64,000 bases of DNA from an uncultured beta proteobacterium (GCA_963841815.1 CAWJEE010000027.1:52800-116799); one strand, 5' to 3'. Positions 10,067 through 61,978 are shown, counted from the stretch's first letter. Numbers and translations are program-made. The notes: generated by a model from the sequence alone, not told the origin.

Positions 10067-10068
10067 CG

Positions 10069-11145
10069 CTATCGGCCCGGGGCGGTTCGCACGGCGCGCA
10101 CCGCGGACACGCTGTCGTTGATGTTCGGCGTTTCGACCGAAAGCGGCGCCGAGGCGAGTTGCTTCATCGACGCGAGCGCCGCCGCGGTGTCGCGCTGGCG
10201 CACGTCGAAGTAGCGGTTCACGAGCGCCTGCGCCTCGGCGAGGTCCGCGCGGTACAGGCGGTCGTTGCGCGCGAGCAGCGCCTGGCGGGCGTTGAGCAGC
10301 CGCAACCGCAGCTGCAGGCGGACGAGCGCTGCTGTTGCTGCCCCAGCAGCATCGCGTCGGGCGCGTCGACGGCACGGATGCGGATCAGGTCCCGGTACTC
10401 GCCGAGTTCACGCTGGATCGACTCCCACGTGCGCTCCCACCACGCGACCTGGCGCGGCGGTTGCGGCGGCCTGGCGCGACGCAGCCGTCGCGGGCGCCGT
10501 CGGACTCGCGTCCGCGAGCAGCGGCCAGTTCTCCGAACTCGTCATGAGCTGGTCGATCTTCAGCGCGATGCCGGTGACATCGACGGTCGGCGCGGCCCGG
10601 AGCCGCTCGATGTCGCGCGCGAGCACGCGCCGCAGCGGCAGGAAGCGCGGCGACTCGAGACGGGCCAGGCGCGTGTCGGCAGTCTGCAGCGCGGCGAGCG
10701 CGGTGGGCACGTTGCCGGTGAGCTGGAGTTCCTGCGCGCCGAGCGTGATCAGCCGCTCCACCTCGACGAGCACGGCCTCGTCACGGCCGCGCGACAGGTC
10801 CGCGTACAGCTGCTCGAGCGCCTCGCGCTGGCTCTCGACTTCGGCGAGGCGCGCTTCGAGCACGGCGGACTGCTGTCGCGCCGCGCGCGCTTCCGCGTCG
10901 GCGCGCGTGGCGGTCTCGGTGGCAGCGGCCGCGGCCTGCTGCAGTTCCGCCAGACGGCGCGCCGTCTCGCGCTTGACCGCAGCGAGCTGGCTGTACGACA
11001 ACGCGCCGACGGCGACGACGAGCAGCAGCGCGAGCAGCGCCAGCCACGGCACGCCGGCGCGAGCGGTCGGCGCGACGCCAGCGGACTCGACGACCGCGGT
11101 TGGCGCAACCGCCGATTCCGGGCTCGTGGTCGGTTCGGTGCTCAC
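10069..11145 (-). pseudogene. hemX: HemX-like membrane protein (the so-called uroporphyrinogen-III C-methyltransferase family) with about 2 frame switches
   Basis: ORF 10408..11145 carries a TM helix and a coiled-coil region. The sequence continues as AWWERTWESIQRELGEYRDLIRIRAVDAPDAMLLGQQQQ in a second frame, then in ORF 10069..10305. The switches are at about 10450 and 10320. Confidence 0.75.
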
Positions 11146-11214
11146 GTTGGACGACAGGGCAGCAGTAAAGGGTGCGACGTCACGGTCGCGGCGCGGGCCA
11201 CCGGAAGGCGGTGA

Positions 11215-11992
11215 TCAACCCTGGATCGATTCTAGCTTGCCGATCACCGCCGAGTCGTCCGATGCGGCAGCCTCGACATTCGCGAATCCCGCCGCGTGCA
11301 GTCTCTGCGCCACACGCGGATGGGTGGCGATGGCGAGGCCGCGTCGCAGCCACTCGGCGGCACCCTCGACCCGCTCCACCTGCTCCAGGATCGCGCCGAC
11401 CGCTTCGGCACTGCTGACGATCGTGATCGGCGAGGACACCGCCGCCCATCCACCCGAGCAATCGGCTCCGCTCGCCCTCCGGCAGGGCATGCGGTGAACG
11501 GTCGTAGACCGCCAGCACGTCCACCTCGGCATCGGCAGAACGGAACTGGTCGATGATCCAGTCGCGCCCGGTGGCCGCGCGCAGCACCAGCACGCGACGC
11601 GCCCGCCGTCCTGTCGCTCACCACGCACGCCAGAAACCCTCGGAGCCGGACTCGTCGCCGTCGTCCGGTGCCACGATGGACGCCGCACCGCCACCCGGCA
11701 ATTCGGCGGCCGCGGCGTCGCGCGTGCTCGCGCCGACCGCGCCGATCACGGTCGATGCCGGCCAGTCTGCGGAAAGGCGCTCCGCGGTCGCGTGGACGGC
11801 GTTCGGGCTGACGAACAGCGCGAGGTCGTAGTCGGCCAGGTGGTCGAGCGCCCGTCGCACCGCTGCCTCGTTCGCGGGCGGCGCAATGTCGAAAGCAGGC
11901 CACCACGCGACCTCGCCGCCGCGTCGTCGAAGCGCGGCCACCAGCCGCCGGCCGGGCGCGGCCGGACGGGTGACGATGACCGGAGCGCGCAT
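11215..11992 (-). pseudogene. hemD: Uroporphyrinogen-III synthase with at least 2 frame switches
   Basis: MRAPVIVTRPAAPGRRL... (ORF 11618..11992) continues in ORF 11180..11593 (VLVLRAATGRDWIIDQF...) and then in ORF 11215..11694 (ITIVSSAEAVGAILEQV...ATHPRVAQRL...). It sits between hemC and hemX. Confidence 0.8.
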
Positions 11993-12005
11993 CGGCCGGG
12001 CAGGA

Positions 12006-12923
12006 TCAGGCGGTGCCGAGCAGCTGCAGCGCGCCGTCGGCCTTCAGGCGTGCGACCGCCTCCGCCGCGATCGCATCCACGTCGGTCATCGGTCCGCGGA
12101 CCTCGGTTTCGACGAACTCGCCGGTGGCCGCGTTGCCGACCAGGGCGCGCAGGCGCAGGTCGCTGCCTTCGACCTCGGCATACGCCGCCAGCGGCACCTG
12201 GCAACTGCCGCCCAGCCCGCGCGACACGCCGCGCTCGGCGGCCGTCGCCGCGCGCGTCGACGGGTCGTCGAGCGGCGCAAGCAGCGACCGGACGGTGGGA
12301 TGCGCGCGCAGCACTTCGATGCCGAGCGCGCCTTGTCCCGGCGCCGGCAGCGACACCGTGGTCGGGATGATCTGGCGGATGCGATCGGCGAGGCCGAGGC
12401 GCTTCAGTCCGGCCGCGGCCATCACGAGCGCGTCGAATTCGGCGCGGTCGAGCTTCGCCAGCCGGGTGCCGACGTTGCCGCGGATCGACTGGATCGCGAG
12501 GTGCGGAAAGCGCGCGCGCAGCATCAGTTCGCGACGCAGGCTCGAGGTGCCGATGCGGGCGCCCGCCGGCATCTCCTCGAGCGCCGCGTAGCGAGTGGAC
12601 ACGACGCAATCGCGCGGATCCTCGCGGGTCATGACCGCCGCTAGCTCGAACTCCGGCGGCAGTTCCATTGGCACGTCCTTCAGCGAGTGGACGGCGAGGT
12701 CCGCGCGGCCTTCGAGGAGCGCGACCTCGAGTTCCTTGACGAACAGGCCCTTGCCGCCGACCTTCGACAGCGTGCGATCGAGGATCTGGTCGCCGCGCGT
12801 GGTCATGCCGAGCAGGTCGACCTCGGCGCCCTGCTGGCGCAGCAGGGCCTGGACGTGCTCGGCCTGCCACAGCGCCAGCGGACTCTCGCGGGTCGCGATG
12901 ACGACCCGTTGCGGTGCATTCAT
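12006..12923 (-). CDS. hemC: Porphobilinogen deaminase (hydroxymethylbilane synthase)
   Basis: The internal ATG at 12923 gives [24 protein letters not shown]... and includes [12 protein letters not shown]. The product is about 305 aa and the reading frame is intact. Confidence 0.95.
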
Positions 12924-12970
12924 GGAGTCGCTTCCGATGCGTCGAAGGCGACGAAGTCTACCGGGGCCGA

Positions 12971-13320
12971 TGCCTCGACTTCGGCCGGGCCAGGTGCGTC
13001 GCGCGAACTGCGGCGGGTGGGCTGCGCCAGGCGCGACTTTCCGGGGTGGCGAGCAGCGCAGGCGAGGGGCGGCGCGCGCCAGCGCGCTCGTCATCAAACT
13101 TGCCACCTCCTGTGTGAGCGCAGTGAGCGCAGCGAACGAAGCGAGTCAGGCGGCACGCCCCTCGCCGAGCAGCGCAGTGAAGTCGGCGCGTCAGCGCCGA
13201 CCACCCCGGAGGAGCGCCTGGCGCAGCCCGCCCGCCGCAGTTCTGGCACACACGTTGACGACGGTCGGAAAGTCGGGAGAAGACGCAAGCGACAGCGAGC
13301 ATGCCGTCGCTCGGGAAGGC
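12971..13320 (+). repeat. Short copy (C) of a GC-rich intergenic repeat family, containing a 43-45-nt inverted repeat
   Basis: The left end, tgcctcgacttcgg, matches the left ends of the copies at 41584 and 51771. The motif gaactgcggcggg(t/c)gggctgcgccaggcgc...ccggggtgg occurs forward at 13005..13049 and reverse-complemented at 13201..13243. Confidence 0.7.
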
Positions 13321-29329: not shown

Positions 29330-30200
29330 ATGGCCTACCGGGGCCGGTTTGCCCCTTCGCCCACCGGCCCGCTGCACGCGGGCTCCCTCGTCGCGGCGCT
29401 CGCGAGCTGGCTCGACGCGCGCGCGGCTGGCGGCACGTGGATCGTCCGCATCGAGGACCTCGACCCGCCGCGCGAGGTGGCCGGGGCCGAGCGAGGAGAT
29501 CCTGCGCCAGCTCGCCGCCTGCGGACTCGAGTCCGACGAACCGGTCCTGTTCCAGAGCCGCCGTTCGGACGCCTACGAGAATGCGTTCCTGCCGCTGGCC
29601 GAGCAGGGGCTCGTTTACGGATGTGCCTGCTCGCGCAAGGACGTCGAGGCGGCGATCGCCGCGCGGCCGGGCTGGCCGGACGGCGTCTATCCCGGCACGT
29701 GCTCGCGAGCCGCGGTCGTACCGGCGAAAGTGCGCGCCTGGCGCATCCGGGTGCCCGACGTGCGGGTGTCCTTCGTCGACCGCGCGGTCGGTCCGTACGC
29801 GCAGTCACTCGCGCGCGACGTCGGCGACTTCGTGATCCGGCGCGCGGACGGGCTGTGGGCGTACCAGCTGGCGGTCGTCGTGGACGACGCGCACCAGCGC
29901 ATCACCGACGTCGTCCGCGGGGCGGACCTGCTCGACAACACGCCGCGACAGATCCACCTGCAGCGCGCACTCGGCCTGCCGCTGCCGCGCTACCTGCACG
30001 TCCCCGTGGTGGTCGATGGGCGGGGCGAGAAACTGTCGAAGCAGACGCTAGCACCCGCGCTGGACAGACACGCCCCGCTGCCCGCGCTCGAAGCCGCCGC
30101 GCGGCACCTCGGCCTTCCGCGCATCGGCGCGGACGACGTTGCGGCGTTCCTGCGCGTTGCCACCACGGAGTGGAAGGAAAGCCATCCGCTGCCGCGGTAG
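29330..30200 (+). pseudogene. gluQ: Glutamyl-Q tRNA(Asp) synthetase with one frame switch near 29487
   Basis: [20 protein letters not shown]...[13 protein letters not shown], then [13 protein letters not shown]...[24 protein letters not shown]...KLSKQ. Confidence 0.85.
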
Positions 30201-31705: not shown

Positions 31706-31738
31706 GGCAAACGAAACGGCCGCCCGAGGGCGGCCGTT
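31706..31738 (-). terminator. Rho-independent terminator after the cytochrome cluster
   Basis: On the minus strand the sequence reads acggccgcc-ctcg-ggcggccgt followed by ttcgtttg. It lies 20 nt past the stop codon at 31757. Confidence 0.6.
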
Positions 31739-31756
31739 CGATGGGAGCGCGTCCCG

Positions 31757-33201
31757 CTACTTCTTCTCGGCCTTGGCCTTTTCGGGCTTGGCGGGCGCCG
31801 ACGTCTTGGTCGCCGCGGCCGCGGGGACCGCCGCCGGAGCCGGCGTGGCCGCCTTCGTTTCGACGTTCAGGTTGACCGCGGGCCACTGGCGCCCGTGGCA
31901 CGCCGGATTGGCGCAGAAGTTGCCGCCTTCACGCCCGAACTCCAGCTTGCCGTGGCACATCGAGCACGTGTCGTCGAGCTTGAAGCGGTGCTCGTGCATG
32001 AAGTTGGGCTCGTTGTGGCTGTCCGGCGGGGTCACGCCGGCGACGATCGTCGACGGCACGGTGCTCTTGCCGTTCTCGAGCTTCACCTGCGGCAGGTTGT
32101 GGCACAGCGTGCACTGTAGCCGGATCGCCTCGCCCTTGTCGTTCATGTGCTTGCCGTCGTGGCAACGGAAGCAACCGGGAAAGTCCTTGTGCTGGCCGTG
32201 ATTGGGGAACGACTTCCAGGTGACGCCCTTCTCGTCGAAGGTGCCGGCGAGCAGGATTTCCCTCATGACCTTCTGGAACTGCGCGTCCTTTTCCTTCAGG
32301 TTCGCCGCAACCAGGCGACTTCGCCGCGTTCTCGGCGATGATCTTGTCGATCGCCTTGGAGCGCTCTTCCTGGGGGCCGCTCAGGTCGCCGACGGCCTTG
32401 ATCAGCTCGACGGCGCGCGCCTTCACGCCGGGCAGTTCGCGGTCGATCTTGCCCGCCGCGATGGCCGCGTCCACGCGGTCGGCCGGGTTCGGGAACGGAT
32501 GGCCCACCGCGTTGTGGCAGTTGAAGCACTCCATCCGGCGCGGCTCGAGCTTCGCGAGGTCGTCCTTCGAGAGCTTCGACTCGGCATCCGTATAGACGAT
32601 CTTCGTGCCGTCGGGCTTCGTGATCTGGACCCAGGGAATCTCGCGTCCCTGCACGTCCGGGCTCTTGTACTGCACGTCGTTTGCGATGTGCCAGTGGATG
32701 CCGGAAACCTTCCAGGACACGTCGCGCGGCGCATCGGCACTCGTGTGCAGCGTCAGCCGGTATTCGATCTCGCTGCTCTTCGGATCGGTGTCGTAGCGCT
32801 TGTTGACCACGATGCTGTCGTGATGCTCGGTCTGCGGGTAGTGGCAGGCCTCGCAGGCCTCGCGCGCCGGGCGCAATCCGGATGCGTGCAGCGGACGCTC
32901 GTAACCGGCGATCATGCCCCACAGTTCCTTGAGGTGCGTGGGCTTCATCGCGATGAGCTTCAGGGTCGAATTGCGGCCCATGTGGCACTCGACGCAGTGG
33001 ACCCGGGCGTGGGCCGCGGTCTTGTGCGACGTCGATCTCCTCCGGGTGCACCGCGTGGCACGTGCTCTCGCAGAACTGGTCGCTGTTCGTGTACTCCCAG
33101 CCCGCGATGCCGACGGCGCCCAGCACCATCAGCCCGATGCCGATCGCGATGAACGTGCCGATCGCCCCCACCATGGTCTTGCGACCGAAGCTCATCTTCA
33201 T
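31757..33201 (-). pseudogene. Membrane-anchored NapC/NirT-like multihaem cytochrome c (6 CxxCH plus 2 atypical motifs) with two frame switches
   Basis: The N-terminal TM helix is followed by CESTCH. Frame hops at about 33030 and 32315 then join HKTAAHARVHCVECHMGRNSTLKL...CEACH...CFNCH... to LVAANLKEKDAQFQKVMREILL...CFRCH...CTLCH...CSMCH...CANPACH. Confidence 0.75.
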
Positions 33202-33281
33202 TGCTCGTTCTCCTCCCCCCAGATTGTCACGAGGGCTCCGTCCTTTCGGACGGAGCCCTCATCGCAATGCTACCGCCAACC

Positions 33282-34151
33282 CTAGAAGACGACGCCGAAC
33301 AGGATCAGGCCGATCGTGATCAGGCCGAGCACCACGCCCGCCGTGCCGAGGATCCGGCCGAACAGCAGGCTTTCGCGCTTCGGCGCCGGCGCCTCCAGCT
33401 GCTGCAATCGGCCCTGCTCGACCAGGCGCGCGTACTCGACCGGACGCTCGTCCTTCAGCTCGTGCTCCGAGACAACGCCGGTGAAGAACACCATGTCCAT
33501 CGGGAACTTCTCCGGCCGCAGGTGGCCGTTGAAGAAGTGGATCGTGAAGATGAAGCCCACCGCCAGCAGCGCCTCTTCGCCGTGGACGATCATCGCGATG
33601 TTGAACACCCAGCCCGGCAGGAACTGCGAGAAGAACATCGGGAACCACAGCATGAAGCCCGAGCCGCCGATGATGAACATGCCCCAGAAGACCGCCCAGT
33701 AATCGAACTTCTCCCAGTAGGTGTAGCGGTCGAACTGCGGGCGCGGCCCCTTGCCGAAGAACCACTTGAACATCCCGACGATGTCCTGCCCGTCCTTCAG
33801 GTTGGGCACCATCGAGTACGGGCCCCAGAAGTACGCGAGCCAGTCCTCGGCGAGGAAGGCGCGGACGAAGACCCGGACGACGTGGCCGACGAAGAGCACC
33901 GTCATGATGACCGCGGAGATGCGGTGGATCAGCGCGGCGCCCTGGAAGCCGCCCATCGCCTTGACGAGAGTAACGGCCCAGTCGTGGTCGGAAAACAGCA
34001 GCGGCACGCCGGTCAGCGCGAGGCCGATGAACGAGATCATCATGAACGCGTGCATCACGATCTCGACCGGGCCGAAGCGGCGGTAGTGGGGCCCTGCCGC
34101 GTGGGAGCGCGCGACCGGCACCGAGGTGTTCAAAGCCATCGAACTAGACAT
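33282..34151 (-). CDS. Integral-membrane cytochrome b-like subunit (putative quinol-interacting)
   Basis: The 289-aa ORF has about 5 TM helices with conserved-looking His in the helices (IHRISAVIMTVLFVGHVV, IVHGEEALLAVGFIFTIHFFNGH). It lies between two c-type cytochrome genes. The family was not verified. Confidence 0.6.
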   Translation of the reverse strand: MSSSMALNTSVPVARSHAAGPHYRRFGPVEIVMHAFMMISFIGLALTGVPLLFSDHDWAVTLVKAMGGFQGAALIHRISAVIMTVLFVGHVVRVFVRAFLAEDWLAYFWGPYSMVPNLKDGQDIVGMFKWFFGKGPRPQFDRYTYWEKFDYWAVFWGMFIIGGSGFMLWFPMFFSQFLPGWVFNIAMIVHGEEALLAVGFIFTIHFFNGHLRPEKFPMDMVFFTGVVSEHELKDERPVEYARLVEQGRLQQLEAPAPKRESLLFGRILGTAGVVLGLITIGLILFGVVF

Positions 34152-34163
34152 TTCCCGTTCCTT

Positions 34164-35421
34164 TCAACGACCGCGGCGCCGTTCGCGCACTTCCTTCAGC
34201 TCGCGCAGCATCCACAGCAAGGTGTGCAGGCCAAAGAAGGAGAACACCCCGATCAGCAGCCACACCATGAACAGCCGCGTGTAGTACAGGATGGGCTCGC
34301 CCTCGCGGTCGCGCGGGTTGCCGTGAGGCTTGAAGGCGGCGAAGTTGGCGTTCGCGCCCGGGTGGCAGCTGCGGCAGGTGCTGACGCGGTTTTCCGGCGA
34401 GATCATCGACTTCGGGTTCGATGCCGGCAGCACTTCGTGCGCGCCGTGGCAGCTGTTGCAGGTCGCGACGCGCGTGAAGCCGAGGTTCGTCACCTGACCG
34501 TGGTAGGTGTCGCGGTACGTCGTCAGCAGGCCGCCGTGGCAGTTGCCGCACTCCTTGATGACGTCGACCTGCCATTGCGCCGAGGTGTGCGACTGGATCC
34601 CGTGCGCGCTGTGGCAGTCGATGCAGGTCGGCGCAGCCGAGTTGCCGGCCTGGCGCATCTGCCCGTGCATGCTGTTGGTGAAACGGCTGTACACCTGCTG
34701 GTGGCAACTGCCGCACATGCCCGCTATGTTCTCGCGGCTGACCCGGCTGTCGGCGTCCATCTTGCCGCGGATCTTGTGAGCGCCGTGGCAACCCGTGCAG
34801 GTCGGCGCCTTGCCGGCGTCGGCGGTGCCGCCATTGGTCTTCTTGCCGTGGATGCTGTCGTGGTACATCGCCACGATGTTGCCGCCGGGGAGATGGGCCT
34901 TCTGGACCACGGCGTCGTTGCCGTGGCACGAACCGCAGGTCGCCTCCTGCTTCGCCACGTGCGTGCGCGACGCGGGATCGGTGGACTTGAGGATGTCGTG
35001 CTTGCCGTGGCAGTCGGTGCAGGTGGCCGCCACCATGTTGCCGACCTTGCGCGCCTTCGCGTGCGCGGTCGACTCGTACTCCTTCACGGCCGCGTCGTGG
35101 CAGGCCGCGCAGTTGGCCGGTTTCAGCTTGGGCTCGTGCGGCAGCTTCTCGGCCGACACGTCGCTGTGGCAGTCGGTGCACTTGAACTGCATCTGCCCGT
35201 GCACGGAACCGGCGAAGGCCTTGGCATCCACGGCAATCGACTTGCCGCTCTCGGACTTCGCTGCCGGGTCCGAGTGGCACATCATGCAGCTCTCGTTGGG
35301 ATCCGGAGGCGGAGCGGCGGCGGCGGCGGCGGGCAGGCTTGGCGTCGAGCGAAAGAGAGAAGGACAGAGCGGCCAGCGCCACCAGGCCAGGCAGAAGGCG
35401 AGACAGACGGATTTTCAGCAT
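34164..35421 (-). pseudogene. Periplasmic undecahaem cytochrome c with a C-terminal TM anchor; one frame switch in a GCC run near 35335
   Basis: The signal peptide is MLKIRLSRLLPGLVALAALSFSLSLDA. There are 11 CxxCH motifs (CMMCH, CTDCH, CAACH, CTDCH, CGSCH, CTGCH, CGSCH, CIDCH, CGNCH, CNSCH, CRSCH). The C-terminal helix is ILYYTRLFMVWLLIGVFSFFGL. Confidence 0.8.
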
Positions 35422-35535
35422 GTTGGGCCCGCGCATCGAATCACTCGGCATTCAACGGCGGCGCGCGGAGAATGCGCATCAGGGCGCGCTGCTTGGTCAT
35501 GGCGCGGGCAGTGTTGCATGCGACTCCCGTGCTCC

Positions 35536-35549
35536 GTTGATTCACGTCA
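35536..35549. promoter_or_regulatory. FNR/Anr/Dnr-type box TTGATTCACGTCAA upstream of the cytochrome cluster
   Basis: The left half-site is perfect and the right half-site is GTCAA (consensus TTGAT-N4-ATCAA/GTCAA). It lies 115 nt upstream of the start codon at 35421. Confidence 0.55.
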
Positions 35550-35750
35550 AGGCGATCACCGTGCCGTCCCCTTGATGCACGTGGGTTTCGATGCCGTCAA
35601 ACGAATCGATCTCTTCGATCGCTTCGGGCCACGTCCTGACTCGGTCGACGTTGCGCCTCGTCAAACGCGCCGTCGCGCCGCTGCTACGCTGAACAGGCGT
35701 TTCATGCGCAACCCGCATCACCTGCCTCGCATCGACAGCACGGAGACCTC

Positions 35751-36251
35751 ATGAAAGCCCGTTGCACGCTCATCGCGGCGCTTGCCGCCATCGCCATGCC
35801 CGCGCTCGCGCTTGCGCAGAGCGGCACATTCAACGTCCGCCAGCTCACGCCCGAGACGGCCGCCAAGGCCACGCGCGCGGCGCTCGACGACTGCCGCAAG
35901 CGCGGCTACCAGGTGGCCGTCGCCGTCGTCGACCGCGCCGGCGTCGCGCAGGCCCTGATGCGCGACCGCTTTGCCGGTCCGCACACCGTCAGCACCGCGA
36001 TCAACAAGGGCTGGACAGCGATCAGCTTCCGCACCGACACGCTCGAGTTCGGCCGGGCGACCGCCGGGGCCAGCGAGAGCGCCGGCATCCGCCACCTGCC
36101 GAACGTCGTCGCGGTCGGCGGCGGCGTGAACATCCAGGCCGGTGGAACGACCGTCGGCGCGATCGGCGTCTCGGGCGCGCCGACCGGCGAGGCGGACGAG
36201 GCCTGCGCAAAGGCCGGCATCGCCGCGATCCGCGACGAACTGGACTTCTAG
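35751..36251 (+). CDS. GlcG/HbpS-like (DUF336) haem-binding-type protein with a signal peptide
   Basis: The 166-aa ORF contains AVAVVDRAG...GPHTVSTAINKGWTA...GGGV...GAIGVSGAP. Confidence 0.8.
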   Translation: MKARCTLIAALAAIAMPALALAQSGTFNVRQLTPETAAKATRAALDDCRKRGYQVAVAVVDRAGVAQALMRDRFAGPHTVSTAINKGWTAISFRTDTLEFGRATAGASESAGIRHLPNVVAVGGGVNIQAGGTTVGAIGVSGAPTGEADEACAKAGIAAIRDELDF

Positions 36252-37326: not shown

Positions 37327-40009
37327 ATGCCGATGCGTAACGACCAGGTCGTCACCGTGCGACGCACCGACTATCGGCCACCCGCGTTCCTGCTCGACCG
37401 CGTCGAGCTCGAGTTCGATCTCGACCCCGCGTCGACGCGCGTCGCGTGCGACCCTCGAAGTGCGTCGCAACCACGCCCTTCCAGGCAACAGCGGCCCGCT
37501 GGTCCTCGACGGCGAAGACCTCGAACTCGAGTCGGTGGCGGTCGATGGCACGGCACTGGCGCGCTCAAGCTACGAGTTGATCGCCGGGGCGCTGCGCATC
37601 CCGGCGCCATCCGATCGCTTCACCGTCCGGACCGTCAACCGCATCTGCCCGGAGGCGAACACCGAGCTGATGGGCCTGTTCGTGTCGAACGGCAATTACT
37701 TCAGCCAGTGCGAGGCCGAGGGCTTCCGCCGCATCACGTTCTTCCCGGATCGACCCGACGTGATGGCACCGTACCGCGTGACCGTGCGCGCGGACGAAGG
37801 CCGCTATCCGGTGCTGCTGTCGAACGGCAACCTGGTCGAGCAGGGCCGGCTCGACGGCGGCCGCCATTACGCGGTGTGGGACGACCCGTTCGCCAAGCCG
37901 AGCTACCTGTTCGCGCTGGTCGCCGGCCGCTTCGACGTGCACGAGGAGCGCGTCGTGCGCGCCAGCGGCCGCGAAGCGCTGCTGCAGATCTACGTCGAGC
38001 CCGGCAACCTCGACAAGACCGCCCACGCGATGGCGAGCCTGAAGCGCGCGATCGCGTGGGACGAAGCGCCGGTTCGGGCTGGAACTCGACCTCGACCGCT
38101 TCATGATCGTCGCCACCAACCACTTCAACATGGGGGCGATGGAGAACAAGGGCCTCAACATCTTCAACGCGAAGTACGTGCTGGCGAATCCGAAGGTGGC
38201 CACCGACGCTCGACTACGCCGGCATCGAGTCGATCGTCGGCCACGAGTACTTCCACAACTGGACCGGCAACCGGGTCACCTGCCGCGACTGGTTCCAGTT
38301 GAGCCTGAAGGAAGGCCTGACCGTGTTCCGCGACCAGGAGTTCGCCGCCGACATGATGGGCGACACCGCCAGCCGCGCGGTCAAGCGCATCGAGGACGTG
38401 CGGCTGCTGCGCGCGGTGCAGTTTCCCGAGGACAGCGGCCCGATGTCGCATCCGGTGCGGCCCGACAGCTACCAGGAGATCGGCAACTTCTACACGGCCA
38501 CGGTCTACGAGAAAGGCGCCGAGGTCGTCCGCATGATGCAGACGCTGGTCGGCGTCGACGGCTTCCGGCGCGGCATGGATCTCTACTTCAAGCGTCACGA
38601 CGGCCAGGCCGTCACGTGCGACGACTTCGTCGCCGCCATCGCGGACGCCAACGGCCGCGACCTGACGCAGTTCAAGCGGTGGTACGCGCAGGCGGGCACG
38701 CCGCTCGTCACGGCCGCCACCCGCCACGACCCGGCCGCCGGGATGCTCGAGCTCACGCTGTCGCAGTCCACGGCGCCGACGCCGGGGCAGCCGTCGAAGG
38801 AACCCTTGCACATTCCGATCGCCGTCGGCCTGGTCGGCGGCGACGGCGTCGACATCCCGCTGCAACTGGAGGGCGAGACGTCCGCGCGGGGAACGACGCG
38901 GGTCCTCGACCTGACCCAGCCGAGCACAGACGTTTCGCTTCGTCCATGTGAAGTCCCCGGTCGTGCCGTCGCTGCTGCGCGGCTTCTCGGCGCCGGTGAC
39001 CGTCGACGCGCAGTTCGACGATCGCGACCTCGCGTTCCTCGCCGCGCACGACTCCGATCCGTTCAACCGCTGGGAAGCCGGCCAGAAGATGGCGATCGCG
39101 CGCCTGATGGCGCTGACCGACGCGGTCGAGGCCGGCCGGCCGCTCGCGCTCGACGAATCGTTCGTCGACGTCGTGCGGAGCACGCTGGCGGACCCGGGCC
39201 TGTCGCCGTCGTTCAAGGAACAGGCGCTGACGCTGCCGGCCGAGGGCTTCATCGGCGAGCAGCGCGCCGTGATCGAGCCCGGAGCGATCCGCGCCGCGCG
39301 CCGCTTCGTGCACGGGGAACTGGGTCGTCGCCTGGCAACGGAGTGGAAGGCCGTCTACGACGCGCTGGCGGTCCCGGGTCCGTACTCGCCGGACCACGCC
39401 TCGGCCGGCAAGCGCGGACTGCGCAATCTCGCGCTCGCCTACCTGGTCGACGCCGACGTGCCCGGCGCGCTCGAACTCGCGCGCGCTCAGCTGGTGGCGG
39501 CCGAGAACATGACCGAGGTGCAGGGCGCGCTGATCGCGATCGTGAACAGCGCCGCACCCTGGAAGGCGGACGTCCTCGCGCAACTGGCGCGGGCCTGGTC
39601 GAGCGAACCGCTGCTGATGACCAAGTGGCTGCAGGTCCAGGCGACCGCGATGGCGCAACCCGGAGAGCCGCCGGGCGTCGAGCGCGTCCGCATCCTGATG
39701 CGACATCCGGCGTTCTCGATGGACAACCCGAACGCCGTGTTCGCGCTGTTGCGCGCGTTCTGCGCGCTGAACGAAGCCGAGTTCCACCGCCGCGGCGCCG
39801 ACGGCTATTCACTCTGGGTCGACGCGGTGCTGGCGCTCGACCGCATCAATCCGACGGTGGCCGCGCGCATCGCGCGCGCGCTCGATCGCTGGCGCCGGTT
39901 CGCCACCGACCGGCAGCACGCGATGCGCGAAGCGCTGGAGCGGGTCGCCGCCGCCGATCACCTGTCGCGCGACGTGCGCGAAATCGTCACCAAGTCGCTG
40001 GAGAACTGA
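37327..40009 (+). pseudogene. pepN: Aminopeptidase N with about 4 frame switches
   Basis: GAMENKG and [13 protein letters not shown] are present. The sequence can be followed across frames with switches at about 37445, 38065, 38205 and 38915. The C-terminal third (ORF 38948..40009) is intact. Confidence 0.9.
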
Positions 40010-40013
40010 ACCG

Positions 40014-41012
40014 ATGGCCCGCCTGTCCCTGACACACCACCTGATCCGCTGCGAACGCGAGCACGGACTCGACCCCGACCTGCGGTTGCTGCTCGAGGTG
40101 ATCGCGCGCGCGGTCAAGGCGATCAGCCACGCGGTCGGCAAGGGGGCCCTCGGCGGCGTGCTCGGCCACGCGGGCACGACGAACGTCCAGGGCGAGGCGC
40201 AGAAGAAGCTCGACGTGCTGTCCAACGAGATCCTGGTCGAGGCGAACAGCTGGGGCGGCTACCTGGCCGGCATGGCTTCGGAGGAAATGGACGGCCCGGT
40301 CGGCATTCCGGTGGCCTACCCGCGCGGCAAGTACCTGCTGCTGTACGACCCGCTCGACGGCTCGAGCAACATCGACGTCAACGTGTCGGTCGGCACGATC
40401 TTCTCGGTGCTGAAATGCCCGGACGGCGTCACCGAACCCGACGAGAGCGCCTTCCTGCAGCCGGGCACCGAGCAGGTGTGCGCCGGCTATGCCGTGTACG
40501 GACCGCAGACGCTGCTGATGCTGACCATCGGCCACGGGGTCGTCGGCTTCACGCTCGACCGCGACACCGGCTCGTTCCTGCTGACCCACGAGAACGTGCG
40601 GATTCCCGAGGACACCGGCGAGTTCGCGATCAACGCCTCCAACGCGCGGCACTGGGAGCCGCCGGTCCGGCGCTACATCGACGAGCTGCTGGCCGGGAAG
40701 ACGGGGCCGCGCGGACGCGACTTCAACATGCGCTGGGTCGCCTCGATGGTGGCCGACGTGCACCGGATCATGTCGCGCGGCGGGATCTTCATGTATCCCC
40801 GCGACGCCCGCGACCCGGGCAAGCCGGGCCGGCTCCGCCTGCTGTACGAAGGCAACCCGATGGCGTTGCTGGTCGAGCAGGCGGGCGGCGCGGCGACCAA
40901 CGGCGACAAGCGCATCCTCGAGGTGCGGCCGTCGAAACTGCACGAGCGGGTCGCCGTGTTCCTCGGCTCGAAGAACGAGGTCGACCTCGTCACGTCCTAC
41001 CACCGCGAATGA
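40014..41012 (+). CDS. fbp: Fructose-1,6-bisphosphatase class 1
   Basis: The 332-aa ORF contains [20 protein letters not shown] and GGIFMYP. Confidence 0.95.
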
Positions 41013-55173: not shown

Positions 55174-56458
55174 ATGGCGGCAGTGGGGGGCAGCAACGCA
55201 CAGCCAGGCACCAGCCTGCGGGCGCGGCAGTGGTCCGTGGTCGTCATGAGCACGCTGGCGTTCACGGTGTGCTTCGCGATCTGGATGATGTTCGCGGTGA
55301 TCGGCATCCCGATCAAGAAGATGCTCGACCTGAACGCCACGCAGTTCGGGCTGCTCACCGCGACTCCGGTGCTGACCGGCTCGCTGATCCGCGTGCCGCT
55401 GGGCATGTGGACCGACAAGTACGGCGGCCGGATCGTCTTCTTCCTGCTGATGATCGCCACCGTCGTCCCGATCTGGCTGCTCGACGTACGCGACCGAATA
55501 CTGGCACTTCCTGGTGCTGGGACTGTTCGTCGGCCTGGCCGGCGGCTCGTTCTCGGTCGGCACGCCGTACGTCGCGCGCTGGTTCGACAAGAAGCACCAG
55601 GGCTTCGCGATGGGCGTGTTCGGCGCCGGCAACTCCGGCGCGGCGGTGACGAAGTTCGTCGCGCCGGCGCTCGTGGTCGCGTTCGGCTGGGCGATGGTGC
55701 CGCAGGTCTACGCCGTGGCGATGCTGGTCACCGCGATCGCGTTCTGGTTCTTCACGTACAGCGACCCGAAGCACCTGGTCCCCGGACACGTCACCTACCG
55801 GCGCCAGCTCGAGGTGCTGCGCGATCCGGCCGTCTGGAAGTACTGCCAGTACTACTCGATCGTGTTCGGCGGCTACGTCGCGCTGTCGCTGTGGATGGTC
55901 AACTACTACGTCGGCGAATTCGGCCTCGACATCCGCATCGCCGCCCTGCTCGCCGCGTGTTTCTCGCTGCCGGGCGGCGTGCTGCGCGCCATCGGCGGCT
56001 GGATGTCGGACAAGTGGGGCGCGCACAAGGTGACCTGGTGGGTCTTGTGGGTGAGCTGGATCTGCCTGTTCCTGCTGTCGTATCCCACGACCAGCTACAC
56101 GATCACCACGGTCAACGGACCGTACACGTTCACGCTGGCGCACAACGTCTGGACCTTCACGATCCTGATGGGGGTGCTCGGCGTGGCGTGGGCCTTCGGC
56201 AAGGCGAGCGTGTTCAAGTACATCGCCGACGACTACCCGACCAACATCGGGACGATCTCCGGGATCGTCGGCCTGGCCGGCGGCCTCGGCGGTTTCGTCC
56301 TGCCCGTGATGTTCGGCGCGCTGCTCGACCTCACCGGCGTGCGCTCCAGCGCCTTCATGCTGATGTACGGCGTGGTCTGGGTGTCGCTGATCTGGATGTA
56401 CCGCACCGAGGTCAGCACGCGCGACGTCGTCGGCCGCGCGCCGAAGCCTGCCGCCTGA
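55174..56458 (+). pseudogene. narK: MFS nitrate/nitrite transporter NarK1 with one frame switch near 55481
   Basis: A GAGGAG Shine-Dalgarno precedes the start. The sequence runs ...PIWLL | TYATEYWHFLVLGLFVGLAGGSFSVGTPYVARWF... and continues in ORF 55514..56458. Confidence 0.88.
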
Positions 56459-56488
56459 TCCAAGAGAACGAGAAGAGGGAAACTCACG

Positions 56489-58135
56489 ATGTCAGCCAAC
56501 GCGTCCGCCGCCGCTCCGCGGCCCACCAGCCGGGTCGACATCGTCGACTGGCGCCCCGAGGACAACGCGTTCTGGGAGTCCACGGGCAAGAAGGTCGCCA
56601 ACCGCAACCTGTGGATCAGCGTCCCGAGCCTGCTGTGCGGCTTCGCGGTCTGGCTGATGTGGGGAATCATCACGGTGCAGATGGCGAACCTCGGGTTCCC
56701 GTTCTCGCAGGCGGAGCTGTTCACGCTGGCGGCGATCTCGGGGCTGTCCGGCGCCACGCTGCGCATCCCGGCCTCGTTCTTCATCCGCATCTCGGGCGGC
56801 CGCAACACGATCTTCCTGACGACGGCGCTGCTGATGATTCCGGCGCTCGGCACCGGGATCGCGCTCAGCGACAAGAACACGCCGCTGTGGGTGTTCCAGT
56901 TCATGGCGCTGCTGTCGGGCGTCGGCGGCGGCAACTTCGCCTGCTCGATGTCGAACATCAACACGTTCTTCCCGAAGCGGCTGCAGGGCACGGCGCTCGG
57001 CATCAACGCCGGGCTCGGCAACTTCGGCGTGACCACGATGCAGATCCTGATCCCGCTGGTGATGACCGCGGCGGTGTTCATGTCGCTCGGCGGCGACCCG
57101 ATGACTCTGGTGAAGCCCTCGGGCACGCTGATCGGGAAGATCCCGGCGGGAACGCCCACCTACATCCAGAACGCCGGCTACATCTGGCTGGTGCTGCTGG
57201 TGCCGCTGGCGTTCGCCGGCTGGTTCGGCATGAACAACCTGCTGACCGTGTCGCCGAACATCGGCTCGACGGCCGCGGCGCTCGGCAAGATCCTGCTGCT
57301 GTACGGCGTCGCGCTGGTCACGGCCGCGGTCGGCCTGTACCTGTACCTGCCGAAGCCCACGGGCCTCGGGCTGCTGAACATGTGGATCGCGATGCCGCTG
57401 ATCATCGTCGGCACGCTGCTGGCGATGAAGCTGGTGGCGTTCGGCGACATGAAGCCGAACCTGAAGAAGCAGTTCGAGATCTTCCGGGACAAGCACACCT
57501 GGTCGATGACGCTGCTGTACATCGTCACCTTCGGCTCGTTCATCGGCTTTTCCAACGCGCTGCCGCTGTCGATCAACGTGATCTTCGGCCAGAGCCACGT
57601 CCTGGGACCCGACGGCGTGCTGAAGCACATGCCGAACCCGAACGCGCCGTCGGCGCTGACCTACGCGTGGATCGGCCCCTTCGTCGGCGCGCTGATCCGT
57701 CCGGTGGGCGGCTGGATCTCCGACAAGGTCGGCGGCTCGATCGTCACGCAGGTCATCTCGGTGGTCATGGTGGGAGCGTCGGCCGCCGTGGGCTACGTGA
57801 TGATGCTCGCGTACGCCTCGGCCACGCCCGAGCAGTACTTCCTCCCGTTCATCGGCCTGTTCATCGTGCTGTTCGCCGCCAGCGGCATCGGCAACGGCTC
57901 GACGTTCCGCACGATCGGCGTGATCTACGACCGGACGCAGGCCGGCCCGGTGCTGGGGTGGACCTCCGCGGTCGCCGCCTACGGTTCGTTCATCGCGCCG
58001 ATCGTCATCGGCGAGCAGATCAAGGCCGGCACGCCGCAGTACGCGATGTACGGCTTCGCGATCTTCTATGCCCTGTGCCTGATCCTGAACTGGTGGTTCT
58101 ACCTGCGCCGCAACGCGTACGTGAAGAACCCCTGA
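56489..58135 (+). CDS. narK: MFS nitrate/nitrite antiporter NarK2-type
   Basis: The 548-aa intact ORF contains DWRPEDNAFWESTGKKVANRNLWISVPSLL. It is the second narK paralogue, directly upstream of narG. Confidence 0.88.
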   Translation: MSANASAAAPRPTSRVDIVDWRPEDNAFWESTGKKVANRNLWISVPSLLCGFAVWLMWGIITVQMANLGFPFSQAELFTLAAISGLSGATLRIPASFFIRISGGRNTIFLTTALLMIPALGTGIALSDKNTPLWVFQFMALLSGVGGGNFACSMSNINTFFPKRLQGTALGINAGLGNFGVTTMQILIPLVMTAAVFMSLGGDPMTLVKPSGTLIGKIPAGTPTYIQNAGYIWLVLLVPLAFAGWFGMNNLLTVSPNIGSTAAALGKILLLYGVALVTAAVGLYLYLPKPTGLGLLNMWIAMPLIIVGTLLAMKLVAFGDMKPNLKKQFEIFRDKHTWSMTLLYIVTFGSFIGFSNALPLSINVIFGQSHVLGPDGVLKHMPNPNAPSALTYAWIGPFVGALIRPVGGWISDKVGGSIVTQVISVVMVGASAAVGYVMMLAYASATPEQYFLPFIGLFIVLFAASGIGNGSTFRTIGVIYDRTQAGPVLGWTSAVAAYGSFIAPIVIGEQIKAGTPQYAMYGFAIFYALCLILNWWFYLRRNAYVKNP

Positions 58136-58160
58136 AATCCCCCGCTGCGGAGACAACCCG

Positions 58161-61952: not shown

Positions 61953-61978
61953 CCCAACGCCGATCGGAGAGGAAATCC

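What the first reader, a model, noticed from the sequence alone, without database searches (positions are those of the whole stretch)
31706..35549. Orphan three-gene multihaem module (11-haem cytochrome c, cytochrome b-like membrane protein, NapC-like multihaem protein) with no catalytic partner
Three co-directional minus-strand genes are separated by 12 and 80 nt.
- Gene 1 (34164..35421) has a signal peptide, 11 CxxCH motifs and a C-terminal TM helix.
- Gene 2 (33282..34151) is a His-rich membrane protein of about 5 TM helices.
- Gene 3 (31757..33201) has an N-terminal TM anchor and a NapC/NirT-like start, then a long extension with six CxxCH motifs and two atypical motifs.

The unit is bracketed by an Anr/Dnr-type box upstream and a hairpin with a T-tract downstream, so it looks like a self-contained operon carrying up to 19 c-haems plus b-haems. 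Nothing in or next to it encodes a terminal reductase or oxidase: there is no molybdopterin, Fe-S, copper, NrfA/HAO-type or porin gene.

The layout recalls the quinol:cytochrome c 'Cbc'-type modules of metal reducers. That comparison is from memory and is not verified. It would be unusual next to housekeeping genes in a nitrate respirer. The electron donor and acceptor are not deducible from the sequence.
Basis: partly seen in the sequence, partly recalled or inferred. Interest (0 to 1): 0.7.

Follow-up and report, generated by a model that had tools for sequence, protein, structure and literature searches.

The report
Split CbcL plus ImcH quinol module

Summary
An FNR/Anr-type box lies upstream and a hairpin with a T-tract downstream.

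Genes 1 and 2 are a split version of the fused CbcL/MtrH/MtoC cytochromes. A fused Rhodoferax homologue aligns across both genes in one stretch, and the six-helix, invariant-histidine pattern is kept. Gene 3 belongs to the ImcH family: it matches a published ImcH homologue at E 7e-55 and has the same motif spacing, but one membrane helix instead of three.

The gene 1-gene 2 pair occurs at 593 or more places in species-representative genomes. About half of the 84 loci examined carry gene 3. About 29% of long loci have MtrA/MtrB-type outer-membrane conduits alongside, and 45% have small monohaem cytochromes.

The three frameshifts are most likely assembly indels. Neighbouring housekeeping genes are also broken, and each trio gene is intact in at least one near-identical assembly.

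Verdict: an anaerobically induced quinol-to-periplasmic-cytochrome module; a new variant of a known kind. Direction and final acceptor remain open.

The parts
35537..35550 (-). FNR/Anr/Dnr-type box TTGACGTGAATCAA, about 100 nt upstream of the gene 1 start
   Evidence: It is the only match in the 64-kb window (0.06 expected). The half-sites are conserved and the spacer varies in L001-L006. The same box type lies upstream of the homologous gene in 14 of 70 loci, all proteobacterial, against 0.7 expected.
34164..35436 (-). Gene 1: periplasmic 11-haem cytochrome c with a signal peptide and a C-terminal TM helix carrying an invariant His. It corresponds to the c-domain plus TM1 of fused CbcL/MtrH/MtoC proteins. 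The start is ambiguous (35451, 35436 or 35421).
   Evidence: It has 11 CxxCH motifs and Pfam multihaem families. Homologues of 425-427 aa are intact in L001, L003, L004 and L085. It is collinear with the fused Rhodoferax protein.
35322..35340 (-). Frame switch 1, in a (GCC)n tract between the signal peptide and the first haem motif
   Evidence: The window lacks 5 nt relative to L001, where the gene is intact. Inserting 2 nt restores a 429-aa protein.
34209..34277 (-). C-terminal TM helix of gene 1 with His410 (codon at 34226)
   Evidence: The helix is seen in the hydropathy profile. His410 is invariant in 73 split and fused homologues.
33282..34151 (-). Gene 2: FdnI-like, probably dihaem, cytochrome b with five TM helices. 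It is in the same frame as gene 1, 12 nt after its TGA stop.
   Evidence: PF01292. The AF2 model (pLDDT 73) has FdnI 1kqf_C as its best and only significant PDB match (E 7e-5, target TM-score 0.72). His34, 76, 90, 190, 205 and 210 are 96-100% conserved.
33231..33260 (-). Stable hairpin GAGGGCTCCGTCC-GAAA-GGACGGAGCCCTC in the gene 2-gene 3 spacer
   Evidence: The spacer folds at -39.7 kcal/mol with z -4.65, and 0 of 200 shuffles fold as well. The stem is conserved while the loop varies in L001, L003, L005, L006 and L007. Its function was not determined.
31757..33201 (-). Gene 3: ImcH-family multihaem cytochrome. It has a single TM anchor, a NrfH/NapC-like quinol module, CX3CH plus six CxxCH plus CX4CH, and an Ala/Pro/Lys-rich tail.
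   Evidence: PF03264, E 2e-9. NrfH 2j7a_C, E 2.8e-8. E 7e-55 to the L017 ORF, which equals OFW24447.1, listed as an ImcH homologue in PMC6295460 Table S3. Homologues of 478-482 aa are intact in L003, L004, L007 and L085.
33028..33034 (-). Frame switch 2: one extra base, GATCGA[C]GTCGCAC
   Evidence: Seen in the alignment with L001. Deleting the base restores the frame and the conserved sequence.
32309..32315 (-). Frame switch 3: one extra base, CGCCTG[G]TTGCGG
   Evidence: Seen in the alignment with L001. Deleting the base restores the frame.
31709..31736 (-). Terminator-like hairpin CGGCCGCC-CTCG-GGCGGCCG followed by TTTCGTTT
   Evidence: The RNA fold is -35.6 kcal/mol, z -3.1. The simple scanner missed it, probably because its stem extension absorbs the T-run; this is my reading and was not tested.

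Best explanation
The trio is an anaerobically induced inner-membrane module that connects the quinone pool to periplasmic c-type cytochromes. It contains two quinol dehydrogenases of the kinds known from extracellular electron transfer.

**Genes 1 and 2** form an obligate two-subunit 'split CbcL/MtrH/MtoC' bc cytochrome.
- Quinol is oxidised at the FdnI-like b subunit.
- The C-terminal helix of gene 1 contributes the sixth helix and an invariant histidine.
- Electrons then pass through the b haems to the chain of 11 c haems in the periplasm.

**Gene 3** is an ImcH-type cytochrome. [quoted passage not shown] It passes them along up to eight c haems.

Both proteins would hand electrons to soluble periplasmic cytochromes. 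From there the electrons would go to acceptors outside the cytoplasmic membrane, most likely chelated or insoluble metals, humics or similar, through an outer-membrane conduit encoded elsewhere in the genome.

**Shown:** the family assignments, the architecture, the conservation of the gene pair, its genomic association with Mtr-type conduits and small cytochromes in relatives, and the conserved FNR-type box.

**Inferred:** complex formation, haem occupancy, the direction of electron flow, and the final acceptor in this organism.
For: **Genes 1+2 as a split CbcL/MtrH/MtoC**
- A fused 663-aa Rhodoferax protein lies next to an MtrA-like decahaem gene, an MtrB_PioB porin gene (PF11854, E 7.6e-150) and an MtrC-like gene. 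It aligns across gene 1, the stop codon and gene 2 in one HSP: 38.8% identity over 688 aa, E 4.6e-150.
- The TM spacing of gene 1 plus gene 2 reproduces that listed for MtrH Rfer_4073.
- Histidines are invariant in gene 1's TM helix, in TM1 and TM2 of gene 2, and twice in its TM4. This is the pattern described for CbcL (10.1101/2021.04.15.440034).
- The gene 2 model matches the FdnI fold.
- Gene 1 lies directly upstream of gene 2 in 82 of 84 loci.

**Gene 3 as ImcH family**
- Its motif spacing matches GSU3259 with an offset of 88 residues.
- It matches a published ImcH homologue at E 7e-55, with all six shared motifs aligned.
- Its N-terminus matches NrfH.

**Genomic context in relatives**
- Gene 3 homologues accompany the pair in 43 of 84 loci by tblastn; ORF clustering gives 45.
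- Of 49 loci of 15 kb or more, 14 have an MtrA-like decahaem gene, 11 an MtrB-type or associated large protein, and 22 a small monohaem cytochrome.
- Those small cytochromes match c551 (E 1.7e-16) and MtoD 4xxl (E 4.8e-13).
- Some gene 3 homologues are fused to class-I cytochrome c domains.

**Regulation and published function**
- The FNR-type box is conserved and enriched upstream of the gene.
- ImcH and CbcL are required for extracellular respiration in Geobacter, and the CbcL periplasmic domain reduces PpcA (PMC4251993, PMC9129911, PMC6295460).
Against: - No outer-membrane conduit, small cytochrome or other multihaem gene lies in the 64-kb window or in the syntenic 20 kb of the closest relatives. 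The sink is therefore unknown.
- From general knowledge, not tested here, Burkholderiales usually have only ubiquinone. That would limit quinol-driven reduction to fairly high-potential acceptors.
- Named reference proteins (GSU0274, GSU3259, Rfer_4073) could not be aligned directly. Membership rests on a Rhodoferax homologue, a published homologue list and motif tables.
- Three frameshifts are present in this sequence.
- The stable hairpin between genes 2 and 3 could uncouple their expression.
Confidence: 0.6

Rival explanations
1. Periplasmic bc1 bypass. The module oxidises ubiquinol and reduces soluble class-I cytochromes of the c551/c552 type. These feed denitrification enzymes or cbb3 oxidase inside the periplasm, with no extracellular step.
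For: - An FNR/Anr/Dnr-type box lies upstream.
- narK-narGH in the same window shows a nitrate-respiring lifestyle.
- c551-like monohaem cytochromes lie next to gene 3 homologues in Burkholderiales and Casimicrobiaceae loci.
- Natural fusions of gene 3 homologues to class-I cytochrome c domains exist.
- No conduit genes lie near the trio in the closest relatives.
Against: - Both families are so far linked genetically only to extracellular electron transfer (PMC6295460, PMC4251993).
- 19 c haems is far more than is needed to reduce a c551.
- MtrAB-type conduits sit beside the module in about 29% of long loci.
- The c551-like proteins also resemble MtoD, a shuttle in an extracellular pathway (PMC4412085).
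Confidence: 0.15
2. Reverse operation. The module is a quinone reductase that takes electrons from periplasmic cytochromes, ultimately from Fe(II), reduced humics or a cathode, into the quinone pool. NarGHI then uses them for nitrate reduction, as proposed for MtoC in Fe(II) oxidisers.
For: - CbcL/MtrH/MtoC homologues occur in Fe(II) oxidisers, and both directions have been proposed (PMC6295460).
- narGH lies in the window.
- Several relatives have only MtrA plus MtrB without an MtrC-like protein next to the trio (L012, L023, L029, L044), sometimes followed by FeoB.
- MtoD-like small cytochromes are nearby in relatives.
Against: - ImcH homologues have so far been tied only to quinol oxidation (PMC6295460).
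- No conduit or Cyc2-type gene is visible here.
- Direction cannot be read from the sequence.
Confidence: 0.15
3. Dead locus. The three frameshifts are real, and genes 1 and 3 are pseudogenes.
For: - There are three frame switches in 2.7 kb of coding sequence in genes 1 and 3.
- dN/dS for gene 3 against L003 is fairly high, at 0.50.
Against: - The same stretch of the window has at least 4 frame switches in pepN and 1 in the gluQ-like gene.
- The near-identical assemblies L001 and L085 carry frameshifts at other places (gene 2, the gene 3 C-terminus, M20, ADH) and are intact at the window's three sites.
- After 1-2 nt repairs all 19 haem motifs, the TM helices and the invariant His are intact, with no internal stops.
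Confidence: 0.05
4. Membrane anchor and electron-input unit of an unidentified catalytic reductase or oxidase encoded elsewhere.
For: - NapC/NrfH and FdnI relatives often serve dedicated enzymes (NrfA, Fdn); this rests on general knowledge and on the top PDB matches.
- Some distant loci have Rieske, FrdAB or radical-SAM neighbours.
Against: - No catalytic subunit is conserved next to the pair across 84 loci. The only recurrent neighbours are cytochromes and Mtr-type conduit genes.
- NCBIfam scores for FdnI, NrfH, NapC and TorC equivalogs are far below their cut-offs.
Confidence: 0.05

Closest known systems
CbcL (G. sulfurreducens GSU0274) / MtrH (R. ferrireducens Rfer_4073) / MtoC (D. aromatica, Gallionella) family of inner-membrane bc cytochromes
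   Same: - A periplasmic multihaem c domain followed by an FdnI-like b domain.
- Six TM helices in all, with His in the first three helices and two in the fifth.
- Sequence homology along the whole length to a fused Rhodoferax member next to mtrABC-like genes.
- Frequent genomic association with MtrAB/MtoAB conduits and MtoD-like cytochromes.
   Different: - Here the protein is split by a TGA and a 12-nt spacer into an 11-haem subunit with one TM helix and a five-helix b subunit. About 47 of 72 classifiable loci are split in the same way, while about 85 of the best 150 library representatives are fused.
- It has 11 haem motifs rather than 9.
- No conduit genes are nearby.
ImcH (G. sulfurreducens GSU3259) family
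   Same: - A NapC/NirT/NrfH-like region.
- A first haem motif of CX3CH immediately after the membrane anchor.
- Six CxxCH motifs with the family's spacing.
- A similar length.
   Different: - One TM helix instead of three, as in the Anaerolinea and Intrasporangium homologues.
- An additional C-terminal CX4CH motif and an Ala/Pro/Lys-rich tail.
- Co-operonic with a CbcL-type pair rather than monocistronic.
CbcBA (Cbc5) of Geobacter
   Same: - A two-gene bc cytochrome.
- The multihaem subunit is anchored by a C-terminal helix that is proposed to supply a histidine to the b subunit.
   Different: - CbcB is described as a four-helix protein of the PhsC/hydrogenase type with no sequence homology to CbcL (10.1101/2021.04.15.440034). 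The b subunit here has five helices and the CbcL His pattern.
- 11 haems rather than 7.
- FNR-type control rather than sigma-54/BccR control.
NrfH / NapC / CymA tetrahaem quinol dehydrogenases and FdnI
   Same: - The N-terminus of gene 3 matches NrfH (2j7a_C).
- Gene 2 has the FdnI fold (1kqf_C).
   Different: - Gene 3 is 480 aa with eight motifs, and it has no NrfA, Nap or Tor partner.
- Gene 2 has an extra helix and no FdnGH partner.
- All NCBIfam equivalog scores are far below their cut-offs.

Membership tests
CbcL/MtrH/MtoC | N-terminal periplasmic domain with multiple (3-23) CxxCH motifs | tested here: met
   Gene 1 has 11 CxxCH motifs and 15 further periplasmic His residues available as distal ligands.
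CbcL/MtrH/MtoC | FdnI/HydC-like cytochrome b membrane domain | tested here: met
   PF01292, E 8e-8. The AF2 model has 1kqf_C as its best Foldseek match (E 7e-5, target TM-score 0.72).
CbcL/MtrH/MtoC | Six TM helices, with conserved His in TM1-3 and two in TM5 | tested here: met
   Gene 1 has one helix with His410 and gene 2 has five. His34, His76/90 and His190/205 are 96-100% conserved in 73 homologues. The helix spacing equals that tabulated for Rfer_4073.
CbcL/MtrH/MtoC | c and b domains fused in one polypeptide | tested here: not met
   A TGA stop and a 12-nt spacer containing AAGGAA precede the gene 2 ATG. The split recurs in 47 of 72 classifiable loci.
CbcL/MtrH/MtoC | Sequence homology to a recognised member | tested here: met
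   38.8% identity over 688 aa, E 4.6e-150, to the fused L035 protein, which lies next to MtrA/B/C-like genes. GSU0274 and Rfer_4073 themselves were not available for alignment.
CbcL/MtrH/MtoC | Required for extracellular electron transfer | not testable with these tools
   This needs genetics and electrochemistry.
ImcH | Region of NapC/NirT (NrfH) homology after the membrane anchor | tested here: met
   PF03264, E 2.3e-9. NrfH 2j7a_C, E 2.8e-8, over residues 22-140.
ImcH | First haem motif is an atypical CX3CH next to the TM region, followed by 5-9 CxxCH | tested here: met
   CESTCH lies at residue 44, after the TM helix at 14-32, followed by six CxxCH motifs. The spacings 25/47/109/118/20/49 compare with 24/49/106/117/20/38 in GSU3259. 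The CX3CH is conserved in all clade members.
ImcH | Three N-terminal TM helices | tested here: not met
   There is one helix only. All Burkholderiales and Casimicrobiaceae homologues have one. PMC6295460 still counts single-helix proteins (Anaerolinea, Intrasporangium) as ImcH homologues.
ImcH | Sequence homology to a recognised member | tested here: met
   E 7e-55, 31% identity over 366 aa, to L017:10913-12280. That ORF equals OFW24447.1 of Table S3 in length, organism and motif positions.
CbcBA (Cbc5) | Four-helix PhsC/hydrogenase-type b subunit with three His, plus a 7-haem c subunit | tested here: not met
   The b subunit here has five helices and at least five conserved His, the c subunit has 11 haems, and the pattern matches CbcL. 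The comparison used the published description only, not sequences.
Formate dehydrogenase gamma subunit (FdnI), the source annotation of homologues | Equivalog-level similarity and an adjacent FdnGH | tested here: not met
   TIGR01583 scores 32 bits against a cut-off of 115.85, and NF007924 scores 31 against 341. There is no molybdopterin or Fe-S gene next to the pair in any close relative.
NapC/NirT/CymA/NrfH/TorC | Tetra- or pentahaem protein of about 140-390 aa reaching the family cut-off | tested here: not met
   TIGR02161 scores 24 against 310, TIGR03153 23.5 against 134, and TIGR02162 22 against 478. Gene 3 is 480 aa with eight motifs.

The most novel reading that the evidence does not exclude
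In most lineages outside Geobacter, the ImcH-type and CbcL-type quinol dehydrogenases may not be independent alternatives. They may instead be one co-transcribed, possibly physically associated, two-entry unit.

In this presumably ubiquinone-based, FNR-controlled nitrate respirer, which lacks a neighbouring conduit, the unit would serve a role not yet described for either family. That role could be a bc1-independent ubiquinol:cytochrome c551 route for denitrification, or an electron-uptake route feeding NarGHI.

The conserved hairpin between genes 2 and 3 would then set the ratio of the two parts.
Probability: 0.2. Interest if true: 0.6.

Novelty: new variant of a known kind. Interest (0 to 1): 0.38.

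Why it matters
ImcH and CbcL are the two best-studied exits from the quinone pool in metal-respiring Geobacter. There they are encoded apart and are used in different redox-potential windows.

- **A different default arrangement.** The window, and hundreds of public genomes from Acidobacteriota, Burkholderiales, Ignavibacteriota and others, show a split CbcL with an ImcH gene directly behind it. The two often sit beside MtrAB-type conduits or MtoD/c551-like cytochromes.
- **Annotation.** Current annotation calls these proteins 'formate dehydrogenase gamma', 'NapC/NirT' or 'hypothetical'. The capacity for extracellular or periplasmic electron exchange in soil and groundwater Burkholderiales is therefore easy to miss.
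- **A testable question.** The arrangement makes it possible to ask whether the two proteins work as one unit.
- **This locus.** The finding settles what the trio is and shows that the frameshifts are probably not biology.

Tried and rejected
- **NCBIfam:** no equivalog. Every hit was far below its cut-off.
- **PDB by sequence:** only NrfH, NapB and FdnI fragments matched. No ImcH or CbcL structure was found.
- **AlphaFold2 of a 92%-identical gene 3 homologue with 23 sequences:** mean pLDDT 51, and confident only for residues about 175-330. It was not used for fold search.
- **Sigma-70 promoter scan:** nothing found.
- **Terminator scan:** it missed the hairpin after gene 3, so that hairpin was assessed by folding instead.
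- **Rfam over 31.0-36.5 kb:** only sub-threshold chance hits.
- **Direct alignment with GSU0274, GSU3259 and Rfer_4073:** not possible.
- **Literature on 'undecahaem + dihaem b + NapC':** nothing relevant.
- **FdnI membrane subunit of a formate dehydrogenase:** rejected. There is no FdnGH and the score is sub-threshold.
- **HAO/c554-type nitrogen module:** rejected. There was only a weak PF13435 hit and no HAO gene.
- **Mtr outer-membrane cytochrome:** rejected. The PF22113 hits reflect generic haem packing, and gene 1 has a C-terminal inner-membrane helix that is collinear with CbcL-type proteins.

Full report
**1. The observation**

The window is about 70% G+C. On the minus strand between 35451 and 31757 there are three co-directional genes.

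- **Gene 1.** It carries 11 CxxCH motifs in one frame, from 35288 to 34362. It has an N-terminal signal-peptide-like segment and a single C-terminal hydrophobic helix.
- **Gene 2 (34151-33282).** This is an intact 289-aa protein with five hydrophobic helices and a weak but specific Pfam hit to PF01292, Ni_hydr_CYTB.
- **Gene 3 (33201-31757).** It has one N-terminal helix, then CX3CH, six CxxCH and CX4CH. Once its frame is repaired it matches PF03264, NapC/NirT, at E 2e-9.
- **Spacers.** They are 12 and 80 nt.
- **Upstream box.** TTGACGTGAATCAA lies at 35537-35550. It is the only TTGAY-N4-ATCAA match in 64 kb, with 0.06 expected.
- **Downstream hairpin.** A GC-rich hairpin followed by TTTCGTTT follows gene 3. 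It folds at -35.6 kcal/mol with z -3.1.

The description is therefore correct in every structural detail, including the three frame switches.

**2. The frameshifts**

The window was compared with a 93%-identical metagenomic contig, L001.

- It lacks 5 nt in a (GCC)n tract between the signal peptide and the first haem motif of gene 1.
- It has one extra base near 33031 and another near 32312 in gene 3.
- Repairing 1-2 nt at each site gives proteins of 429 and 480 aa with every haem motif intact and no internal stop.

The errors are not specific to this locus.

- In the same 20 kb the window has at least four frame changes in pepN and one in a gluQ-like tRNA-synthetase-family gene. Ten other genes are intact.
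- L001 has its own frameshifts in gene 2 and at the C-terminus of gene 3.
- A third near-identical assembly, L085, has genes 1 and 3 intact but gene 2, the M20 peptidase and an alcohol dehydrogenase broken.
- Every gene of the trio is thus intact in at least one of three near-identical assemblies.
- dN/dS against an 85%-identical relative is 0.30, 0.35 and 0.50 for genes 1, 2 and 3.

I conclude that the frameshifts are most likely assembly indels. Only resequencing can prove it.

**3. Genes 1 and 2 are a split CbcL/MtrH/MtoC-type bc cytochrome**

*Distribution.*
- Gene 2 has more than 6000 close database homologues. Many of those that carry a source name are labelled 'cytochrome b subunit of formate dehydrogenase'.
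- It matches 2272 clusters at 50% identity with E up to 0.001, and 446 clusters at E up to 1e-30.
- A scan of species-representative genomes found at least 593 places encoding a relative. They span Burkholderiales, Casimicrobiaceae, many Acidobacteriota, Nitrospirota, Gemmatimonadota, Ignavibacteria, Bacteroidota, Rhodoferax, Ramlibacter and Methylomonas.
- In 82 of the 84 loci examined, a gene 1 homologue lies directly upstream of the gene 2 homologue.

*Relation to the fused forms.*
- In Rhodoferax, Ramlibacter, Methylomonas and others the two are one protein of about 650-720 aa with 8-9 haem motifs.
- About 85 of the best 150 library representatives are also fused.
- One such fused protein, L035 from Rhodoferax sp., sits next to an MtrA-like decahaem gene, an MtrB_PioB porin gene (PF11854, E 7.6e-150) and an MtrC-like gene. 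It aligns with the window in a single HSP that runs through gene 1, its TGA stop, the 12-nt spacer and gene 2: 38.8% identity over 688 aa, E 4.6e-150. The two genes are in the same frame.
- That gene arrangement is the one described for MtrH of R. ferrireducens. Zhong & Shi (PMC6295460) group MtrH with MtoC and Geobacter CbcL as one family of fused multihaem-c/dihaem-b quinol oxidases or quinone reductases with six TM helices.

*Architecture.*
- Gene 1's single helix plus gene 2's five helices reproduce the helix spacing tabulated for Rfer_4073.
- Across 73 split and fused homologues, His410 in gene 1's helix is invariant. In gene 2, His190 and His205 are also invariant, and His34, 76, 90 and 210 are 96-99% conserved.
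- An AlphaFold2 model of gene 2 (pLDDT 73) has E. coli FdnI as its only significant PDB match (E 7e-5, target TM-score 0.72).
- The invariant histidine on gene 1's helix implies that the two products form an obligate complex. This is an inference.

**4. Gene 3 is an ImcH-family protein**

ImcH is defined in two papers (PMC4251993 and PMC6295460) by four features:
- N-terminal TM helices;
- a NapC/NirT-like region;
- a first haem motif that is CX3CH, next to the membrane region;
- 5-9 further CxxCH motifs.

Gene 3 meets these as follows.
- It has CESTCH right after its helix, then six CxxCH motifs. Their spacings are 25/47/109/118/20/49, close to the 24/49/106/117/20/38 of GSU3259 in Table S3. 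The offset is 88 residues, which corresponds to the two extra N-terminal helices of the Geobacter protein.
- The gene 3 homologue in locus L017 has the length (455 aa), organism and motif positions of OFW24447.1, which that table lists as an ImcH homologue. Gene 3 matches it at E 7e-55 with all six shared motifs aligned.
- Residues 22-140 match the quinol dehydrogenase NrfH (2j7a_C, E 2.8e-8).

The differences are a single TM helix, an added CX4CH motif and a low-complexity tail. The single helix is shared by all Burkholderiales and Casimicrobiaceae homologues. The published survey also reports it for Anaerolinea and Intrasporangium.

**5. What travels with the module**

- Gene 3 homologues accompany the pair in 43 of 84 loci by tblastn (45 by ORF clustering), nearly always directly downstream.
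- Among 49 loci with at least 15 kb of sequence, 14 have an MtrA-like decahaem cytochrome, 11 an MtrB_PioB porin or an associated large protein, and 22 a small monohaem cytochrome within 10 kb.
- The small cytochromes next to gene 3 homologues in Burkholderiales-type loci match cytochrome c551 (E 1.7e-16) and the electron shuttle MtoD (4xxl, E 4.8e-13; PMC4412085).
- Some gene 3 homologues are fused to class-I cytochrome c domains (P0174 in L086).
- Other lineage-specific neighbours are Rieske proteins, FrdAB with a UbiE/RquA-like methyltransferase, and a UbiE-like methyltransferase with a B12-radical-SAM protein.
- No catalytic reductase is conserved next to the module.
- In the window and its closest relatives, the neighbours are an HbpS-like gene, EamA, pepN, FBPase, an M20 peptidase, a gluQ-like gene and a PAS-GGDEF gene. 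None is functionally related to the module.
- No Mtr-type, porin or other multihaem gene occurs anywhere in the 64 kb.
- narK-like genes, narG and narH lie at 55.4-63.6 kb.

**6. Regulation**

- The half-sites of the upstream box are conserved, while the 4-nt spacer varies among relatives of 73-95% identity.
- A TTGAY-N4-RTCAA box lies within 350 nt upstream of the homologous gene in 14 of 70 loci, all proteobacterial, against 0.7 expected.
- This supports control by an FNR/Anr/Dnr-type regulator and hence expression under low oxygen. That is an inference from a conserved motif, not a demonstration.
- A very stable hairpin in the gene 2-gene 3 spacer has a conserved stem and a variable loop in close relatives (-39.7 kcal/mol, z -4.65). 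It might modulate gene 3 expression. It matches no Rfam family.

**7. Mechanism and alternatives**

My best reading is as follows.

- Two quinol dehydrogenases are co-expressed under anoxia.
- The split bc cytochrome takes electrons from quinol through b haems into an 11-haem periplasmic chain.
- The ImcH-type protein takes electrons through a NrfH-like site into up to eight haems.
- Both reduce periplasmic carriers.

In Geobacter, ImcH and CbcL are needed for extracellular acceptors above and below about -0.1 V, respectively (PMC4251993; 10.1101/2021.04.15.440034). The CbcL periplasmic domain reduces PpcA (PMC9129911).

The final sink in this organism is not visible. Three outcomes remain possible:
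- extracellular transfer through a conduit encoded elsewhere, which I favour;
- a periplasmic bc1 bypass to c551-type cytochromes for denitrification;
- reverse flow from Fe(II) or humics into the quinone pool and on to NarGHI.

A dead locus and an anchor for an unknown enzyme are unlikely, for the reasons given in sections 2 and 5.

**8. Comparison with the literature, and novelty**

- Both families are known and have been surveyed (PMC6295460).
- Split b-plus-c clusters 'reminiscent of CbcL' are mentioned for Geobacter (10.1101/2021.04.15.440034).
- Consecutive accession numbers for the ImcH and CbcL homologues of Desulfuromonas acetexigens imply adjacent genes (PMC12133095).
- In the papers I read, I found no description of three things. 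The first is the split-CbcL-plus-ImcH operon as a widespread unit. The second is the single-helix, eight-motif ImcH clade of Burkholderiales. The third is FNR-type control of it.
- The 2018 survey states that no mtrAB/mtoAB genes were found next to imcH. Loci L012, L023, L029 and L044 here show exactly that adjacency.
- I therefore rate the finding a new variant of a known kind, of moderate interest.

Noticed in passing
window 55454-63579 (+): Two narK-like MFS transporter genes, narG (molybdopterin, Nitr_red_alph_N) and narH (Fer4_11, Nitr_red_bet_C) lie here. This is a respiratory nitrate reductase cluster about 20 kb from the trio.
   Followed up: partly
window 37327-40029 (+) and 29330-30197 (+): pepN is broken into at least five frame segments, and the gluQ-like tRNA-synt_1c gene into two. 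Ten neighbouring genes are intact. This points to assembly indel errors across the window.
   Followed up: partly
window about 33031 and about 32312: The two single-base insertions in gene 3 lie in GATCGACG and CCTGG contexts. These resemble common methylation motifs (GATC, CCWGG), where nanopore basecalling is said to err. That idea is from memory and was not tested.
   Followed up: no
window 33231-33260 (-): A perfect 13-bp hairpin with a GAAA loop (15 pairs in the predicted fold) sits between genes 2 and 3. The stem is conserved and the loop variable in L001, L003, L005, L006 and L007. It is absent in L009 and L012. Its function is unknown.
   Followed up: partly
window 31757-33201 versus L003 and L006: Gene 3 diverges much faster than its surroundings. 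It is 68% identical in amino acids to L003, while the flanking M20 peptidase, GGDEF and FBPase genes are 94-97% identical. L006 has the closer gene 3 (80%) but the more distant genes 1 and 2 (73%). This suggests allele exchange or rapid evolution.
   Followed up: no
L012, L023, L029, L044 (also L010, L018, L026, L028, L032): ImcH-family genes lie within a few kb of MtrA-like decahaem and MtrB_PioB porin genes. In L029, FeoB follows them; L044 has a homologous ORF at the same place. A 2018 survey reported that no mtrAB/mtoAB genes were found next to imcH.
   Followed up: partly
L086:7291-9189 (P0174; also P0175, P0196): ImcH-like proteins of 624-636 aa carry C-terminal class-I cytochrome c domains (PF13442/PF00034), within an otherwise identical trio.
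   Followed up: partly
L034, L036, L043, L048, L056, L064; L037, L042, L045, L082: In some Rhodoferax-type loci (L036, L048, L064) the fused form is followed by FrdA/FrdB-like genes; in these and in L034, L043 and L056 a UbiE/RquA-like methyltransferase lies downstream. In Nitrospirota the split pair is followed by a UbiE-like methyltransferase, an unknown protein and a B12-binding radical SAM protein. This may be a link to specialised quinones.
   Followed up: partly
window 35751-36251 (+): An HbpS-like (PF03928) gene is transcribed divergently from the trio. The adjacency is conserved in L001, L002, L004, L006 and L085.
   Followed up: no
window 9256-13145 (-): Haem biosynthesis genes lie here: porphobilinogen deaminase at 12009-13145 and a HemY_N protein at 9256-10008.
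   Followed up: no
window 34152-34166 (-): Genes 1 and 2 are in the same reading frame, separated only by TGA and 12 nt containing AAGGAA. Stop-codon read-through would recreate a fused CbcL-like protein. This was not tested.
   Followed up: no
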